A DNA stretch of 31,279 bases from a virus. Lineage: Duplodnaviria > Heunggongvirae > Uroviricota > Caudoviricetes > Ackermannviridae. Both the position numbers and the translations under genes were made by a program. The DNA is taken from positions 1-31,279 of IMG/VR virus record IMGVR_UViG_2974515140_000001; one strand, 5' to 3'. Positions 1 through 4,363 of the stretch are shown here, piece after piece (the stretch's first letter is position 1; the number at the start of each line of letters is the position of its first letter). A model generated the notes under the pieces. That model ran no database searches. It was not told where the DNA came from and saw only the letters and a program-made list of their open reading frames with translations.

Positions 1-196
1 CTGTTTTGCGAACTTGAAAATACTGCGCCTGTCTCGGGTTTCCCCTTAGTTCGGCCTCTCATTGTTCGTCTAGTCAGGGAGCTACCCTTGATGACCAGCT
101 TATTTTGAGATCTTCGCCAGCACCCACTAGTGTCTAGAATATGTAGGTGTCGAGGTCTGCAAGGCATTGCCCTATTTCATACAACGCTCTCTCAAG

Positions 197-334
197 TACG
201 CAAATCGAAGTTCTCTGGGCTTAACAGGTTCGACCCAACATGTTGTATATCGCCTAACTTGCTCATGGGACGGACACATCTGTGTACAGACCTTGAGGGT
301 TAAAAGATATACCCAGAGAACTTCGATTTGCGTA
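197..334. repeat. 23-bp perfect inverted repeat (197-219 / 312-334) enclosing a 92-nt spacer
   Basis: TACGCAAATCGAAGTTCTCTGGG at 197-219 is the exact reverse complement of CCCAGAGAACTTCGATTTGCGTA at 312-334. An inner TTAAC/GTTAA pairing continues the stem. Confidence 0.95.
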
Positions 335-378
335 GCCCTTCACTTGCCAAAGATCAGGGCTAATAACAAGACTTCGCT

Positions 379-467
379 CACATCTTTGAGGACACTGCGC
401 GGGACTTGAACCCGCCATGAACATCTGGCGCCAAATGCTTCCACCTGTCAATGTCCTCAAAGATGTG
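379..467 (-). ncRNA. tRNA-like element 1 (canonical T-arm, no D-stem, non-canonical anticodon arm, 19-bp closing stem)
   Basis: On the minus strand: T-arm GCGGG-TTCAAGT-CCCGC (415-399); arm CATTTGGCGCCAGATG (437-422); closing stem 467-449 / 397-379 with one G-U that only works on the minus strand. No CCA end and no 7-nt anticodon loop. Confidence 0.6.
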
Positions 468-592
468 GAGCCGTTTTAGGGAGTCGAACCCAAATGCTTG
501 GTCAGCGCTAACCTTACATCTCATCTGACTTAGGCAACCCACCTCTGCTTACTCAGGAGCTTATCCCCTTTGGACAGTCAGATATAACGGCT
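466..592 (-). ncRNA. tRNA-like element 2 (~127 nt, CCA-ended cloverleaf with enlarged arm)
   Basis: Perfect 7-bp terminal stem AGCCGTT (592-586) / AACGGCT (475-469) followed by CCA (468-466). T-arm-like TTGGG-TTCGACT-CCCTA (493-477). Internal stems ATCTGACT/AGTCAGAT and GGTTA-GCGC-TGACC. Confidence 0.6.
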
Positions 593-593
593 T

Positions 594-900
594 TGGGATT
601 GGAGGGAGGAATCGAACCTCCCAGGGTGCGCCCCAAATTAGGGGCTGGCTCACGCCTGAAACCTTATTAAGCACCTGCTCCGCTCATTGTCGACGGGAGC
701 TTATTAATCACACCCTCCCGCCTATTTTTAGTGCGCCAAATTTGGTTATGAGGGATTGGAAGACCTCACTGGTGTATGGCTGTTAAGCTACTGCCAGGAA
801 CGTATTATCGTTTGCATTTATCTTTGTGGTCAGTTTCTAAAAACCCGCAAAGCCGCACACAACGAGAACGAAAACCTGTTTGAGCACAAGACGACCTTGT
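594..900 (-). ncRNA. tmRNA-like RNA (tag reading frame plus downstream T-arm and CCA); 5' boundary uncertain
   Basis: Minus strand reads AAAGATAAAT-GCA AAC GAT AAT ACG TTC CTG GCA GTA GCT TAA (815-783) = ANDNTFLAVA*. The TAA sits in a hairpin loop. An H-type pseudoknot candidate lies at ~736-693, and T-arm GGAGG-TTCGATT-CCTCC (621-605) is followed by ...CCA (596-594). No 5' acceptor strand could be found by eye. Confidence 0.55.
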
Positions 901-1117
901 CCTGGATTCACATCGAAGCGCTTGTCAAGTGCCCAAACAGCTTTTCGTTCAGTGGGTTAACTATACTTTGTAACCCGTTATTGACAAAACTTTTAAACCT
1001 GCCGGAACTTACGCATCCGGCCTCGCCTGTCGGTGCTCCTTCGAATCCGGGAAGATCAGTAGGAACTATGAATCAAGTTAATTCTACCAACAGGAACCTT
1101 TGTGTTGCCCTTTGACG

Positions 1118-1154
1118 CAACATTATGAACCCTCTATGAAGACTCATAATGTTG
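1118..1154. repeat. 11-bp inverted repeat hairpin directly 3' (minus sense) of the tRNA-like element at 1157-1245
   Basis: CAACATTATGA (1118-1128) / TCATAATGTTG (1144-1154). Confidence 0.8.
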
Positions 1155-1156
1155 TC

Positions 1157-1245
1157 GGCGTGATGGAGATTAGCGCCCCCGACCTCCCCTTGTGTTGGTG
1201 TCGACTTGCCAACGGGGTGCTCTCATTCTTCTGAGCTAATCACGC
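1157..1245 (-). tRNA. degenerate or atypical tRNA-like gene with insertion in the anticodon arm (pseudo-tRNA; identity not assignable)
   Basis: Acceptor GCGTGAT/ATCACGC, TA at positions 8-9, D-stem GCTC/GAGC, anticodon stem CCCC/GGGG enclosing about 25 nt with an inner GTTGG/CCAAC hairpin, variable AGGTC. T-arm is degenerate (GGGGG-CGCTAAT-CTCC) and there is no CCA. Confidence 0.55.
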
Positions 1246-1444
1246 TACAACAGGGAGTTTCGTTCTCCGACGGTCAGTGCGTCCACTAACACCAGCGAGG
1301 TGGATACTACGCCTCTATTAACGCATGCCCCTGAGACTGGGATTAGTGAGGTCGGCTTTAGATGCCTAACTCAATGCGCTGTTCGCCTCGTGTTTGATAC
1401 TTTACTGCAAGCCAGCCAATTTGAAAAATCCTCTCCCCTTTGAA

Positions 1445-1591
1445 TTACACTGCCCACAGCAGTGCGGACGAACCTTCATTCAAAACCGGATGCGCCGAAA
1501 TGGGCGACTGTGTACCGGACTGATCAGGTCGACCCAGGAGAGAGCAGGTAATCCCAATCAGGAGGATGAGGAGTAACATCATGTAAAACAT
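1445..1591 (-). CDS. small putative membrane protein, 48 aa (MFYMMLLLILLIGITCSLLGRPDQ...LLWAV); below the ORF-track cutoff
   Basis: Strong SD (GGAGGG) ~6 nt before ATG at 1591; open frame to TAA at 1447-1445; N-terminal ~19-residue hydrophobic segment. Confidence 0.6.
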   Translation of the reverse strand: MFYMMLLLILLIGITCSLLGRPDQSGTQSPISAHPVLNEGSSALLWAV

Positions 1592-1648
1592 AGTGTTCCC
1601 TCCCTTCCATGCAACTAACTTTACCGCATTTATTTATTGAATAAAGCG

Positions 1649-2218
1649 TTATTTTATCACTTCTAACTTCACAACACGACGCAGAAGATAAACATATTCA
1701 TTAGATGCTTCATGCGACATATAATGTGTTGAGGGGGTAGAATGGTTGTTCTGGGTTTCTTTTAACCCAACGCGTTCAGCCCAACCATTGATGGAGTTCC
1801 CGTAAAACCCGATAATCGCGCCGAAATAAATGCGCTGGCTCTCTGGTTCTAAAATATAGTTGACAGTGAAACAGATGTCAGAACGAATAGATTCTAATTT
1901 TATACCGACCCGACCTTCAGAAAATTCGTTGCGCACATACAAATGACGAAAACGATCGCGCCGCGCTTGCGATGACTCTTCCAATTCTTGGCGAAGTGAG
2001 GTTGTTGCATCGATATTAAATGAAAATGTCGGATTTTGTAGATCAGAACGGGCTAATTCTAAAGCAGATTCAATAACACGGCGGAAATTAATATTTTTGC
2101 CAGTCAGACGTTTCACTTCTTCTGTAATTGTTCCGAAAGGAATTTTTACAACACGTTCCCCTTCGTATTTTGCTAACAAAGGGATAATGTGTTTCATTAT
2201 TGCTGTATTAATGTGCAT
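1649..2218 (-). CDS. hypothetical protein, 189 aa
   Basis: Long ORF in an otherwise ORF-free interval; AGGA SD-like sequence before ATG; promoter motif upstream. No family recognised. Confidence 0.8.
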   Translation of the reverse strand: MHINTAIMKHIIPLLAKYEGERVVKIPFGTITEEVKRLTGKNINFRRVIESALELARSDLQNPTFSFNIDATTSLRQELEESSQARRDRFRHLYVRNEFSEGRVGIKLESIRSDICFTVNYILEPESQRIYFGAIIGFYGNSINGWAERVGLKETQNNHSTPSTHYMSHEASNEYVYLLRRVVKLEVIK

Positions 2219-2581: not shown

Positions 2582-4363
2582 ATGGCCACGCAAACAGTTC
2601 CTTCACTCGACGTCAGAGCATTTGAATATATTATTAAACAGCGAATGAAAGCAGATCCCACCTTTAAAGATTATGACTTTGAAGGTTCTGGTCTTAGTGC
2701 GATTATTCGTTTGTTGGCATCTGACGCGAACGCCATAGCCTTTATGCAGAACATGCTTAATGGTGAAGGTCATTTAAAAACAGCAAATCAACGTTCTAAT
2801 GTTGGTTTGTCCGCCGCTTTTCTTTCTTATACACCCGACAACTATCGGGCGGCATACATGTATGTCAACATCAAAGTAACGCCGTATGACGCCAGCACAG
2901 CTCCTAATGAGATCATTATGGACCGCCGTGTGATGTTCGTTGGTGCGAAGGATGGGAGTTCCTACAACTTTACTGTTGAAAAACCTGTGTCTGCTACGCT
3001 GACACCCGAAGGTTATTACATGTTCAACAACGTGAAATTGATTCAGGGGAACTGGTTGTACAAGACTTATGATGTTGAAGGGAGTGCAATATCTACTTAC
3101 ACAATTCCTTCTGAGAATGTTGATATCAATCATCTGGTCGTACAGGTACAGGAATCAGAATCATCGGACGTTTCAACAACATATCAACGTTACAACAGTC
3201 CGTTCGACCTGAGTCAATATGCATATCTTTATTTTGTGGAATTGGGGATAGATGGCCTGTATGTGTTTGAATTCGGTGATGGTTATTTGTCTCGCCGAGT
3301 AGAAGACGGAAACGTTATTTTCCTCCAGTATTTGGAAACTTCTGGTGCAGAAGGTAACGACATCACCAGCTTGTCTTCCGCGTCTTCGATTGGTGGGTTT
3401 AATCAGGTTGACATACAACTGGTTTCCGAACGCAGTGCGGGCGGCGGGGATCCAGAATCCATTGAAGACATCAAACGTCTTGCTCCTTTAGCTTATCAGG
3501 CCGATGGCGCTGCCGTTACAGAAACGGATTATGGTGTGTTGACAGAAAGGCTGTTCTCTAACGTTTCTCGTGCCAAATCTTATGGTGGTGACACGCTTTC
3601 TCCACCGGATTCCGGCTACGTTTATATTGCTGTGATACCATCTGTTGGTGAGACTCTTTCAGACGCGGAGAAGGCTGATATCGTTGCTTCTTTGGACAAA
3701 TATAATGTGGGGTCTATCACTCCCAAAGTGGTGGACTCAGACATAACATATATCCAAGTTGCGACAACAATATTTTGGGATCCGACTTCGACAGTTTATG
3801 TTGAAGAACAGATGAAAGTCGTGGTGGGAAACAGTATTGTCAAATGGGGCGAAAACAATCTCGGTGGGTTTGATCAGTTGTTCGACAAAGAGATATTGCA
3901 AGAAGCAATTACGAAAATGGAACGTTCTATTAACTCAAATATCACGTCTGTCGGTTATAAACGTCATTTCAAACCTGATTATGGTGTGTTAGATAGCTTT
4001 ACTTTCAGTTATGGGAGAAGCATTAAACCTGGTTCTGTGAAAATAACAGGGTTTAAACCGCTTCCGGCCGAAGTGGATTTCACTTATTACATGCGTGATG
4101 AAAATGGAAATTTGAACATGTATAAGGTGAATAACAATGACACAACCAAAGAATTTTTTGTACAGAAAACAGGCGTTGTGGATTACATCAACGGCGTTGT
4201 CGATCTTCAGCAGATTACTGTTTCAAACTATAATCCTGAAGGGATAACGATTGTTGTTCTGCCGGATGGGCTGAATCAGAATATACAGGCTTCACAGAAC
4301 CAAGTATTCAAAATTGGTGATGTGGTTGTTACGCCAGAGGTGCGCTATGTCCAAAGATCTTAA
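2582..4363 (+). CDS. gp6: baseplate wedge subunit, T4 gp6-like (593 aa)
   Basis: gp6 motifs (FKDYDFEGSGLS, FEFGDG, GG.DPESIEDIK, AVTETDY). The ATG at 2582 with GGAG SD is preferred over the TTG at 2531. Confidence 0.92.
   Translation: MATQTVPSLDVRAFEYIIKQRMKADPTFKDYDFEGSGLSAIIRLLASDANAIAFMQNMLNGEGHLKTANQRSNVGLSAAFLSYTPDNYRAAYMYVNIKVTPYDASTAPNEIIMDRRVMFVGAKDGSSYNFTVEKPVSATLTPEGYYMFNNVKLIQGNWLYKTYDVEGSAISTYTIPSENVDINHLVVQVQESESSDVSTTYQRYNSPFDLSQYAYLYFVELGIDGLYVFEFGDGYLSRRVEDGNVIFLQYLETSGAEGNDITSLSSASSIGGFNQVDIQLVSERSAGGGDPESIEDIKRLAPLAYQADGAAVTETDYGVLTERLFSNVSRAKSYGGDTLSPPDSGYVYIAVIPSVGETLSDAEKADIVASLDKYNVGSITPKVVDSDITYIQVATTIFWDPTSTVYVEEQMKVVVGNSIVKWGENNLGGFDQLFDKEILQEAITKMERSINSNITSVGYKRHFKPDYGVLDSFTFSYGRSIKPGSVKITGFKPLPAEVDFTYYMRDENGNLNMYKVNNNDTTKEFFVQKTGVVDYINGVVDLQQITVSNYNPEGITIVVLPDGLNQNIQASQNQVFKIGDVVVTPEVRYVQRS

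What the first reader, a model, noticed from the sequence alone, without database searches (positions are those of the whole stretch)
783..825. Hidden tmRNA-type proteolysis-tag frame (ANDNTFLAVA*) in the non-coding island
Seen: the minus strand reads AAAGATAAAT GCA AAC GAT AAT ACG TTC CTG GCA GTA GCT TAA. This is a 10-codon frame starting at a GCA codon with T and A at positions -5 and -4. It ends in a TAA in the loop of a TGGC/GCCA hairpin. Downstream are an H-type pseudoknot candidate (CGCAC/GTGTG crossed with GGCGGGAG/CTCCCGTC, ~736-693) and a T-arm plus CCA (621-594). Known: E. coli tmRNA resumes at GCA, needs U85/A86 at those offsets, encodes ANDENYALAA* and has the stop in the helix-5 loop. 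Phage-encoded tmRNAs are known in some other phage groups. Inference: this is a phage tmRNA or tmRNA-derived RNA. It is atypical because I found no 5' strand pairing with the CTCCAAT-C-CCA end, no G3-U70 acceptor, and the upstream region is a long multi-hairpin domain (stem AACGAAAA.CTGTTTGGGCAC / GTGCTCAAACAG.TTTTCGTT) rather than a short pk1. It may be split, trans-paired or re-purposed. It could restore ribosome rescue against anti-phage tRNA/tmRNA-cleaving defences, or change the fate of tagged proteins (C-terminal AVA rather than LAA).
Basis: partly seen in the sequence, partly recalled or inferred. Interest (0 to 1): 0.88.

Follow-up and report, generated by a model that had tools for sequence, protein, structure and literature searches.

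The report
Headless tmRNA-like phage RNA
The tag-like frame is real: it lies in an unannotated phage RNA that copies the tag-coding half of the bacterial ribosome-rescue RNA (tmRNA), lacks its tRNA half, and carries an arm complementary to the host's own tmRNA, so the phage probably blocks or rewrites the host's degradation tag.

Summary
Observation confirmed. Window 815-783 (minus strand) reads GCA...TAA = ANDNTFLAVA*, preceded by AUAAAU with U at -5 and A at -4.

The frame is conserved in about 75 distinct loci of unrelated enterobacterial phages (Kuttervirus, Mooglevirus, Moazamivirus, N4-like, 46-48 kb phages, lambdoid prophages). Within Kuttervirus every tag difference is synonymous. A helix around the stop and two pseudoknots after it covary strongly.

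It is not a canonical tmRNA:
- ARAGORN and Rfam find none.
- There is no G3-U70 acceptor and no phage SmpB gene.
- The T-arm plus CCA at 622-594 belongs to a separate tRNA-like module that close relatives lack.

The 39 nt before the tag (876-838) are antisense to host tmRNA nt 68-106, which hold the pseudoknot-1 3' strand, A86, the resume codon and five codons. In 42 of 43 family members the best antisense match falls there. None matches its own tag as well.

Best reading: a promoter-driven RNA of about 260 nt (about 953 to 690) docks on host tmRNA. It either supplies its own tag template (favoured) or simply blocks tagging.

I found no published description; a kuttervirus genome paper lists 0 tmRNAs. 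This scan has reported the same RNA family several times before on other phage DNA. I re-tested its central claims here. Expression and tagging remain untested.

The parts
960..987 (-). Sigma-70-like promoter: TTGTCA (987-982), 16 nt spacer, TATAGT (965-960). Predicted start near 953.
   Evidence: 10 of 12 consensus match. The -10 hexamer and the start region are conserved in Det7, RCIP0012, AKM_ssTn, heyday and in Dickeya phage Coodle. Short contigs in guessed-RNA runs end at 954 and 946 (weak).
867..949 (-). 5' hairpin: AACGAAAAGCTGTTTGGGCAC (949-929) pairs with GTGCTCAAACAGGTTTTCGTT (887-867). Its 3' strand overlaps the start of the antisense arm. Its 5' strand (AACGAAAAGC) resembles the host tag codons GACGAAAAC.
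   Evidence: Fold -38.9 kcal/mol, z -6.1, 0 of 200 shuffles as good. Compensatory changes GGGCAC/GTGCTC to GAGTCC/GGACTC in Det7, AKM_ssTn and heyday. Phage 7-11 has the same outer stem with a different interior.
838..876 (-). Arm antisense to host tmRNA nt about 68-106: pseudoknot-1 3' strand, A-rich linker with U85/A86, resume codon, first 5 codons.
   Evidence: Local alignment to the reverse complement of E. coli ssrA maps to nt 68-104 (score 26; shuffles 15.5 +/- 2.1). Cofold: 26 intermolecular pairs, 865-838 with tmRNA 68-100, gain -12 kcal/mol. Family-wide, 42 of 43 arms map to nt 66-107, and all match the host better than their own tag.
828..846 (-). Small conserved hairpin or pseudoknot-1-like element: GGGTTTTTAGAAACTGACC.
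   Evidence: Highly conserved in the main clade. GG/CC pairs are invariant and GTTT/AAAC is 74% paired, with no covariation. The structure is unproven.
816..827 (-). Resume context ACAAAGAUAAAU, with U at -5 and A at -4.
   Evidence: AUAAAU is invariant in 43 aligned family members. The Kuttervirus variant AUAAUC keeps U-5/A-4. Matches ARAGORN's resume consensus as printed for real phage tmRNAs.
783..815 (-). Tag frame GCA...GCT TAA = ANDNTFLAVA*.
   Evidence: There are 30 distinct tag sequences and 18 peptides in 67 loci, with variation concentrated at third positions. The other two frames hold stops in 24-26 of 30. Within Kuttervirus only synonymous changes occur: GCA/GCT, AAC/AAT, AAT/AAC.
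769..797 (-). Helix-5-like stem CUGG (797-794)/CCAG (772-769) enclosing the stop codon and a small apical hairpin.
   Evidence: 96.4% of cells paired; G-C 24, A-U 16 at one pair.
736..768 (-). Pseudoknot 2: S1 UGAGG (768-764)/CCUCA (753-749); S2 CCAA (759-756)/UUGG (739-736).
   Evidence: 97% and 91% paired. 8 of 9 pairs show changes on both sides. Examples: CAAGG/CCTTG, CCGA/TCGG, CCAG/CTGG, GTCG/CGAC.
692..735 (-). Pseudoknot 3: S1 CGCAC (735-731)/GUGUG (713-709); S2 GGCGGGAG (722-715)/CUCCCGUC (699-692).
   Evidence: 95% and 79% paired. 6 of 9 pairs show changes on both sides, for example GCCC/GGGC in most relatives against GGAG/CUCC here.
594..685 (-). Neighbouring tRNA-like module (T-arm GGGAGG-UUCGAUU-CCUCCC, tail UCCAAUCCCA). 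Not part of the tag RNA proper.
   Evidence: Folds with its own imperfect acceptor-like stem, z only -1.6. Present in RCIP0012, absent in Det7. Relatives in sequencing runs skip 591-684/689.

Best explanation
Window about 953 to 690 (minus strand) encodes a non-coding RNA of about 260 nt. It belongs to a widespread, unannotated family of 'headless' tmRNA-like RNAs in enterobacterial phages.

Shown:
- It keeps the mRNA-like half of a tmRNA: resume context, 10-codon tag ANDNTFLAVA, stop inside a helix, and two pseudoknots.
- The peptide evolves under coding constraint.
- It has no tRNA-like domain.
- The segment 5' of the tag is antisense to host tmRNA nt 68-106, which hold A86, the resume codon and the first five host tag codons.

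Inferred mechanism: after transcription from its own promoter, the arm anneals to host tmRNA. This masks the host's resume signals and tag start, and places the phage's resume codon about 22 nt beyond the duplex end that abuts host pseudoknot 1. Host Ala-tmRNA with SmpB would still enter stalled ribosomes, but translation would resume on the phage template. Rescued proteins would then end in AANDNTFLAVA instead of AANDENYALAA.

At the least, the duplex blocks host tagging. The benefit to the phage (changed fate of tagged proteins, or control of ribosome rescue late in infection) is unknown.
For: - Frame and context.
- Family-wide frame conservation and coding-type variation.
- Covariation of helix 5, PK2 and PK3: 87.9% of cells paired against 30-43% when partners are slid. 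146 cells changed on both sides against 52 +/- 7 in shuffles, 0 of 500 shuffles as high.
- Weak but colinear tmRNA model hits: RF04321 21.8 bits, RF01850 15 bits. In a prophage copy, 26.3 bits, E 0.004.
- No tRNA-like domain: ARAGORN finds 0 genes, no Rfam hit at gathering score, no SmpB gene.
- Antisense arm, this window: duplex z -3.7, 0 of 500 shuffles as good. Alignment score 26 against 15.5 +/- 2.1.
- Antisense arm, family: 42 of 43 arms map to tmRNA nt 66-107, mean score 24.2, against 13.8 for the sense strand. The score against the antisense of their own tag is 12.2, with host better than own in 43 of 43. Real phage tmRNAs show no such upstream self-antisense.
- Cofold gain of -12 kcal/mol with the 5' hairpin intact.
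- None of the 43 phage tags carries the host's GACGAAAAC.
- The target 34-mer is exact in Escherichia, Klebsiella, Enterobacter, Citrobacter, Kluyvera, Kosakonia and others.
- Promoter.
- Prophage copies sit directly after tR' of the late operon, in the late-gene direction.
Against: - There is no direct evidence of transcription, of a phage RNA-tmRNA duplex or of tagging. The RNA-library data are contigs only, of relatives, partly with guessed library type.
- No case is known of a tag template supplied in trans to a one-piece tmRNA. The geometry (a duplex of 26-33 bp beside PK1, a 22-nt linker against 10 nt in the host) is untested.
- The phage tags keep the features of a normal degron (AAND/E at the start, an aromatic or hydrophobic residue at position 7, a small hydrophobic C-terminus). 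What 'rewriting' would gain is therefore unclear.
- In this window the first 10 nt of the arm are sequestered in the 5' hairpin.
- In divergent family members the arm's complementarity is short (scores 15-20, near the shuffle level). There, only the consistent map position supports it.
- Salmonella tmRNA, the likely host's, was not checked directly.
Confidence: 0.5

Rival explanations
1. Pure antisense inhibitor. The RNA anneals to host tmRNA and shuts down tagging, or guides RNase III to cut it. Its own tag frame is never translated and persists only as structure or inheritance.
For: The antisense arm is the best-supported functional feature. It covers A86 and the resume codon. A duplex of 26-33 bp is in the size range of RNase III substrates (established knowledge). 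There is no tRNA-like domain.
Against: A mere inhibitor needs no intact frame. Yet the frame, its length, the TAA and a tag-like peptide are kept across unrelated phage families, with third-position variation and only synonymous changes within Kuttervirus. The resume context AUAAAU|GCAAA is invariant.
Confidence: 0.25
2. A complete but unconventional phage tmRNA. The tRNA-like domain would come in cis or as a second piece from a neighbouring phage T-arm module, such as 685-594 with its CCA end, or the units at 592-466 and 467-379.
For: Three T-arm units follow the tag RNA on the same strand, and two end in CCA. Two-piece tmRNAs exist, also in phages (PMC9004378). The resume context is that of permuted tmRNAs.
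Against: - None of the units has G3-U70. Each pairs with its own 5' strand.
- Unit 685-594 is absent in Det7 and in relatives seen in runs.
- Lambdoid prophage copies have no T-arm module nearby.
- In ESh21 the RNA lies between ordinary tRNA-Ile and tRNA-Arg.
- BLAST found no copy of the 467-379 unit in three of four other phage lineages.
- ARAGORN, including its permuted mode, finds nothing in the 79 enterophage-type loci examined, while it finds 38 real phage tmRNAs in the same scan.
Confidence: 0.08
3. Decoy or sponge. The RNA mimics the mRNA-like domain and pseudoknots of tmRNA to soak up a protein that binds them (SmpB, S1, RNase R) or a host nuclease that targets tmRNA.
For: The pseudoknots and the resume region are conserved at nucleotide level.
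Against: This does not explain the host-specific antisense arm or the coding-type variation of the tag. The pseudoknot sequences are unlike those of enterobacterial tmRNA (sense alignment is at noise level).
Confidence: 0.1
4. Inert relic of a captured tmRNA gene, or a chance frame.
For: Rfam scores are below every gathering threshold.
Against: There are 729 phage records with a match. Covariation is strong, the frame is conserved, and the RNA has its own promoter.
Confidence: 0.02

Closest known systems
Coding piece of two-piece (circularly permuted) tmRNA, including phage-encoded ones (Rfam RF04321, RF01850; Melnitz-type marine phages, PMC9004378)
   Same: The resume context AUAAAU|GCAAACGA is shared with real permuted phage tmRNAs. 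So are the tag length and composition: ANDERFLMAA in marine phages against ANEERFLMAA, ANDDVVLMAA and ANDNTFLAVA here. The stop lies in a helix and a pseudoknot follows.
   Different: There is no 5' acceptor strand, D-loop or helix 2, and no acceptor piece upstream. An arm antisense to another (the host's) tmRNA takes their place.
One-piece tmRNA (SsrA) of Enterobacterales, Rfam RF00023
   Same: The order of parts is the same: structured element, linker with U-5/A-4, GCA resume codon, 10 codons, UAA, helix 5, pseudoknots. The peptide starts AND and ends in small hydrophobic residues.
   Different: No tRNA-like domain. Only two pseudoknots follow the tag. The sequence is unrelated outside the resume region (sense alignment at noise level). 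Part of it is the reverse complement of host nt 68-106.
Trans-acting antisense or 'anti-sRNA' RNAs of phages and prophages (for example AgvB and AsxR of EHEC prophages; from my own knowledge, not checked here)
   Same: A phage-encoded RNA with extended complementarity to an abundant host RNA. In lambdoid prophages it is expressed from the late region.
   Different: The target is tmRNA. The antisense arm is fused to a full replacement tag template with conserved coding capacity.
Stable RNAs of unknown function in phage tRNA clusters
   Same: Small structured RNAs embedded in, and probably processed out of, a phage tRNA or tRNA-like array.
   Different: No sequence relation was tested. The T4 RNAs are not known to carry a tag frame or tmRNA complementarity.

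Membership tests
tmRNA (SsrA), one-piece, RF00023 | tRNA-like domain: 7-bp acceptor stem formed by the 5' and 3' ends, T-arm, 3' CCA | tested here: not met
   ARAGORN finds 0 genes. Rfam RF00023 gives only 12.6 bits, on the neighbouring T-arm. The conserved RNA ends after PK3. The T-arm unit 685-594 is separate and dispensable.
tmRNA (SsrA), one-piece, RF00023 | G3-U70 alanine identity pair | tested here: not met
   None of the acceptor-like stems at 685-594, 592-466 or 467-379 has G-U at 3:70 (reading of the sequence with the folds).
tmRNA (SsrA), one-piece, RF00023 | Resume codon for Ala preceded by U-5/A-4, then a short tag frame ending in an in-frame stop | tested here: met
   Conserved in the family.
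tmRNA (SsrA), one-piece, RF00023 | Stop codon in helix 5, followed by pseudoknots | tested here: met
   Helix 5 and two H-type pseudoknots are supported by covariation. Canonical tmRNA has three pseudoknots after the tag; here there are two.
tmRNA (SsrA), one-piece, RF00023 | Score above the curated Rfam threshold, or ARAGORN detection | tested here: not met
   0 matches at gathering score. The best is RF04321 at 21.8 bits against 47.
tmRNA (SsrA), one-piece, RF00023 | Alanylation, SmpB binding and tagging activity | not testable with these tools
   No SmpB gene in the phage. Biochemistry is needed.
Two-piece (permuted) tmRNA, RF04321/RF01850 | Acceptor piece (T-arm, 3' acceptor strand, CCA) upstream of a coding piece that starts with the 5' acceptor strand and D-loop | tested here: not met
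   ARAGORN's permuted mode detects 38 real phage tmRNAs in the same scan but none of the enterophage-type loci. In several phages a promoter abuts the RNA's 5' motif, leaving no room for an acceptor strand. My tentative D-loop homology of UAGUUUUCGU was rejected in favour of antisense to the host tag.
Trans-encoded antisense RNA against host tmRNA (proposed kind) | Extended complementarity to the target that exceeds chance and is conserved across the family | tested here: met
Trans-encoded antisense RNA against host tmRNA (proposed kind) | Physical pairing with the target in vivo | not testable with these tools
   Needs RIL-seq, CLASH or psoralen cross-linking in infected cells.

The most novel reading that the evidence does not exclude
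The phage RNA and the host's Ala-tmRNA with SmpB form a hybrid, inter-species 'two-piece tmRNA'. The host supplies the tRNA-like head and the phage the message. During infection (or prophage induction) every rescued ribosome would write a phage-chosen tag, here AANDNTFLAVA, instead of the host's AANDENYALAA. This would be the first case of a tag template delivered in trans by a virus.
Probability: 0.4. Interest if true: 0.92.

Novelty: new variant of a known kind. Interest (0 to 1): 0.8.

Why it matters
tmRNA is universal in bacteria and is a drug target. Phage-encoded complete tmRNAs are known, but an RNA that keeps only the message half and is aimed by base-pairing at the host's tmRNA is not described in the papers I could search.

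It is common. It matched in 729 of 50,697 phage records and in 178 of 5,426 complete E. coli genomes (prophages and plasmids). These include therapy-relevant Kuttervirus and Felix O1-like phages, whose genome papers report 'no tmRNA'.

If it rewrites or blocks tagging, it is a new layer of phage control over host protein quality control, and a natural tool for reprogramming degradation tags. If it does not, it still marks a conserved RNA gene that annotation pipelines miss.

Tried and rejected
1. T-arm plus CCA (622-594) as the RNA's tRNA-like end: rejected. The unit has its own 5' strand and is absent in relatives.

2. The unit at 467-379 (long stem plus T-arm, also seen in UTK0001) as an acceptor piece: rejected. 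It is self-closed by a 19-bp stem (z -6.8), has no G3-U70, and BLAST did not find it in ESh21, BUCT610 or 7-11.

3. A permuted layout built from the repeats flanking the RNA in 46-48 kb phages and prophages (CAGTGCTCTT on the 5' side, complementary to AAGAGCATTG on the 3' side): rejected. These are repeated stem modules around varied cargo, probably processing stems. In some phages a promoter replaces the upstream one.

4. UAGUUUUCGU as a relic of the tmRNA D-loop: rejected. Sense alignment to tmRNA is at noise level and the antisense match maps consistently.

5. The arm as a cis partner of the phage's own tag: rejected.

7. A pseudoknot-1-like fold for 846-828: no covariation, left open.

8. 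Expression: two searches for sequencing runs and two lay-downs gave only contigs of relatives, some in RNA libraries. Contig ends at 954 and 946 lie near the predicted start. This is suggestive, not evidence of a transcript.

9. Co-variation of the arm with the tmRNAs of different hosts: not done. The target is nearly invariant in Enterobacteriaceae, and the hosts of the divergent IMG/VR members are unknown.

10. Literature: five searches found no description.

Full report
**Where the window lies.** The window is the first 31 kb of a 156-kb Ackermannviridae (Kuttervirus-like) phage record. Positions 1 to about 1650 hold no convincing ORF and are read on the minus strand. In relatives this island lies directly upstream of a tRNA cluster on the same strand.

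**The observation.** The minus strand reads AAAGAUAAAU (825-816), then GCA AAC GAU AAU ACG UUC CUG GCA GUA GCU UAA (815-783), which is ANDNTFLAVA*. U is at -5 and A at -4.
- ARAGORN finds no tRNA or tmRNA in the whole window.
- Rfam finds nothing at gathering score.
- With relaxed thresholds, three tmRNA models give weak, colinear hits: permuted tmRNA RF04321 on 783-896 (21.8 bits), beta-proteobacterial tmRNA on 735-836 (15 bits), and RF00023 on the T-arm at 604-666 (12.6 bits).

**Is it more than chance?** Yes.
- blastn shows that window about 729-860 is 77-86% identical to unannotated DNA in many unrelated phages. In all, 729 of 50,697 phage records match.
- Four of these align with the frame intact and the codons changed. 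They are ANDNVFLAVA (Shigella phage ESh21, Mooglevirus, Ounavirinae), ANEEMYLAVA (Klebsiella phage BUCT610, 46.8 kb, not assigned to a family), ANDNAFRVAA (Salmonella phage 7-11, Moazamivirus, Grimontviridae) and ANDDVVLMAA (N4-like Salmonella phage UTK0001).
- A pattern scan of IMG/VR (ATAAATGCAAAYGA, 12-27 free bases, GCNTAA) returned 117 or more loci. 113 of 118 matches were in frame.
- ARAGORN recognises 38 of those loci as real, mostly permuted, phage tmRNAs. It recognises none of the 79 enterophage-type loci (75 distinct).
- In 67 enterophage-type loci there are 30 distinct tag sequences and 18 peptides. All fit A-N-[DE]-x-x-[FYVMI]-[LR]-[AMVI]-[AV]-A. Variation is concentrated at third positions, and the other two frames hold stops in 24-26 of 30. 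The pattern forces the first two and last two codons, so the unbiased parts of this result are the in-frame spacing and the BLAST-found homologues.
- Within Kuttervirus, AKM_ssTn and heyday differ from the window by GCA to GCU, AAC to AAU and AAU to AAC. All three changes are synonymous, and AUAAUC keeps U-5/A-4.

**Structure after the tag.** I aligned 43 non-identical family members and counted pairs for a structure derived from the window. The structure has a helix round the stop, CUGG 797-794 with CCAG 772-769, plus a small apical hairpin. It then has pseudoknot 2 (UGAGG/CCUCA crossed with CCAA/UUGG) and pseudoknot 3 (CGCAC/GUGUG crossed with GGCGGGAG/CUCCCGUC).
- 87.9% of cells are paired, against 30-43% when the partners are slid by 1-3 columns.
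- 20 of 27 pairs show changes on both sides.
- 146 cells are changed on both sides, against 52 +/- 7 in shuffles (0 of 500 shuffles as high).
His TGGC/GCCA hairpin is less well supported than CUGG/CCAG.

**No tRNA-like domain.** The T-arm plus CCA at 622-594 folds with its own imperfect 5' strand at 685-678. It is present in Klebsiella phage RCIP0012 but absent in Det7. Relatives in sequencing runs skip 591-684/689.
- The two further T-arm units (592-466, 467-379) are self-closed and lack G3-U70.
- In ESh21 the RNA lies between ordinary tRNA-Ile and tRNA-Arg.
- In BUCT610-like phages a promoter abuts its 5' motif.
- In an E. coli O26 lambdoid prophage it follows tR' directly, between Q and the holin gene, with no T-arm module nearby.
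- The phage has no SmpB gene.
- In the 46-48 kb phages and the prophage, the RNA is flanked by repeated, mutually complementary stems (CAGTGCTCTT and AAGAGCATTG). These also flank other cargo, so they look like processing stems.

**The 5' arm.** I first read the universal motif UAGUUUUCGU as a relic of the tmRNA D-loop. Earlier notes of this scan claim instead that the arm is complementary to host tmRNA. I tested that claim against E. coli ssrA, taken from MG1655.
- The window's arm forms a duplex with z -3.7; 0 of 500 dinucleotide shuffles are as good.
- It aligns to the reverse complement of nt 68-104.
- Across the family, 42 of 43 arms have their best antisense match inside nt 66-107. The mean score is 24.2, against 13.8 for the sense strand, whose matches scatter.
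- All 43 arms match the host better than the antisense of their own tag (12.2). Real phage tmRNAs show no upstream self-antisense (10.8). No phage tag contains the host's GACGAAAAC.
- Cofolding the 263-nt phage RNA with tmRNA keeps the 5' hairpin. It pairs 865-838 with tmRNA 68-100 (26 pairs) and gains 12 kcal/mol in a nested model that ignores pseudoknots.
- The paired host segment holds the 3' strand of pseudoknot 1, U85/A86, the resume codon and codons 2-5. U85 and A86 are needed for frame choice (established knowledge).
- The exact 34-nt target occurs in species representatives of Escherichia, Klebsiella, Enterobacter, Citrobacter, Kluyvera, Kosakonia and others.

**Transcription.** A sigma-70-like promoter (TTGTCA 987-982, 16 nt, TATAGT 965-960) precedes the 5' hairpin and is conserved in relatives.
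- Dickeya phage Coodle (Limestonevirus) shares the promoter and the start of the hairpin but then carries different RNA. The tag RNA is therefore a cargo, not a fixture of the family.
- Contigs of relatives occur in metatranscriptome libraries. Three short contigs (184-234 nt) in runs guessed to be RNA cover just this RNA, and two of them end at 954 and 946. This is weak evidence.

**Interpretation.** Identity is well supported: a tmRNA-derived, tRNA-head-less RNA with a conserved tag template and a host-tmRNA antisense arm.

The mechanism is inferred. I favour docking on host tmRNA with use of the phage template, because only translation explains the conserved frame, peptide and resume context. 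A pure antisense block is the main rival. A hidden phage tRNA-like partner, a protein decoy and an inert relic are less likely.

One caveat applies to 'rewriting'. The phage tags still look like working degrons, so its benefit is unclear.

**Novelty.** Five literature searches found no description. Phage tmRNAs reported so far are those ARAGORN finds (PMC9004378). The genome paper of kuttervirus vB_Hercules_Set lists 0 tmRNAs, although that phage's island is 92% identical to this one. The scan itself has reported this family repeatedly on other phage DNA. This report confirms it on this window with independent tests.

Noticed in passing
window 199-332: Perfect inverted repeat of about 20 bp (GCAAATCGAAGTTCTCTGGG ... 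CCCAGAGAACTTCGATTTGC) with a spacer of about 90 nt. It surfaced as a spurious MIR781 hit on both strands. Probably another closing stem of a structured RNA in the island.
   Followed up: no
window 379-467, 466-592, 594-685 (minus strand): Three head-to-tail tRNA-like units with T-arms. None is called by ARAGORN. Two end in CCA. The last one (467-379) is closed by a 19-bp stem (z -6.8) and recurs upstream of the tag RNA in N4-like phage UTK0001.
   Followed up: partly
window 591-689: One whole tRNA-like unit behaves as an indel. It is skipped in contigs of relatives (94-97 nt) and in one run is replaced by 163 other letters. Det7 diverges at the same point. The island looks like an array of exchangeable RNA cassettes.
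   Followed up: partly
window 590-1000 against the phage collection: This stretch is 95% identical to Klebsiella phage RCIP0012 but only 78-85% identical to most Salmonella kutterviruses. This points to recent exchange of the RNA island between phages of different hosts.
   Followed up: no
relatives of window 1-1700 (SP1, FrontPhageNews, Klebsiella phage 0507-KN2-1): HNH homing endonuclease genes are inserted inside the non-coding island in some relatives.
   Followed up: no
L133 (BUCT610) about 2530-2840 of the reverse strand; L138 3400-3760: Repeated inverted-repeat modules (ACAACAGGTAAGAGCATTG ... CAGTGCTCTTTCCGTTGTGG) flank several different short cargos besides the tag RNA. Possibly RNase III processing stems or recombination cassettes.
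   Followed up: partly
L138 (E. coli O26 prophage) 3126-4197: In lambdoid prophages the tag RNA array starts immediately after the late terminator tR'. It would therefore be made only when Q antitermination turns on the late operon.
   Followed up: partly
window 929-949: The 5' strand of the hairpin (AACGAAAAGC) resembles the host tag codons GACGAAAAC and pairs in cis with the first 10 nt of the antisense arm. This could act as a built-in mask or toehold.
   Followed up: no
L135 (Dickeya phage Coodle) 1505-1570: Limestonevirus shares the promoter and the first 40 nt of the hairpin, then carries an unrelated structured non-coding stretch of about 700 nt instead of the tag RNA.
   Followed up: no
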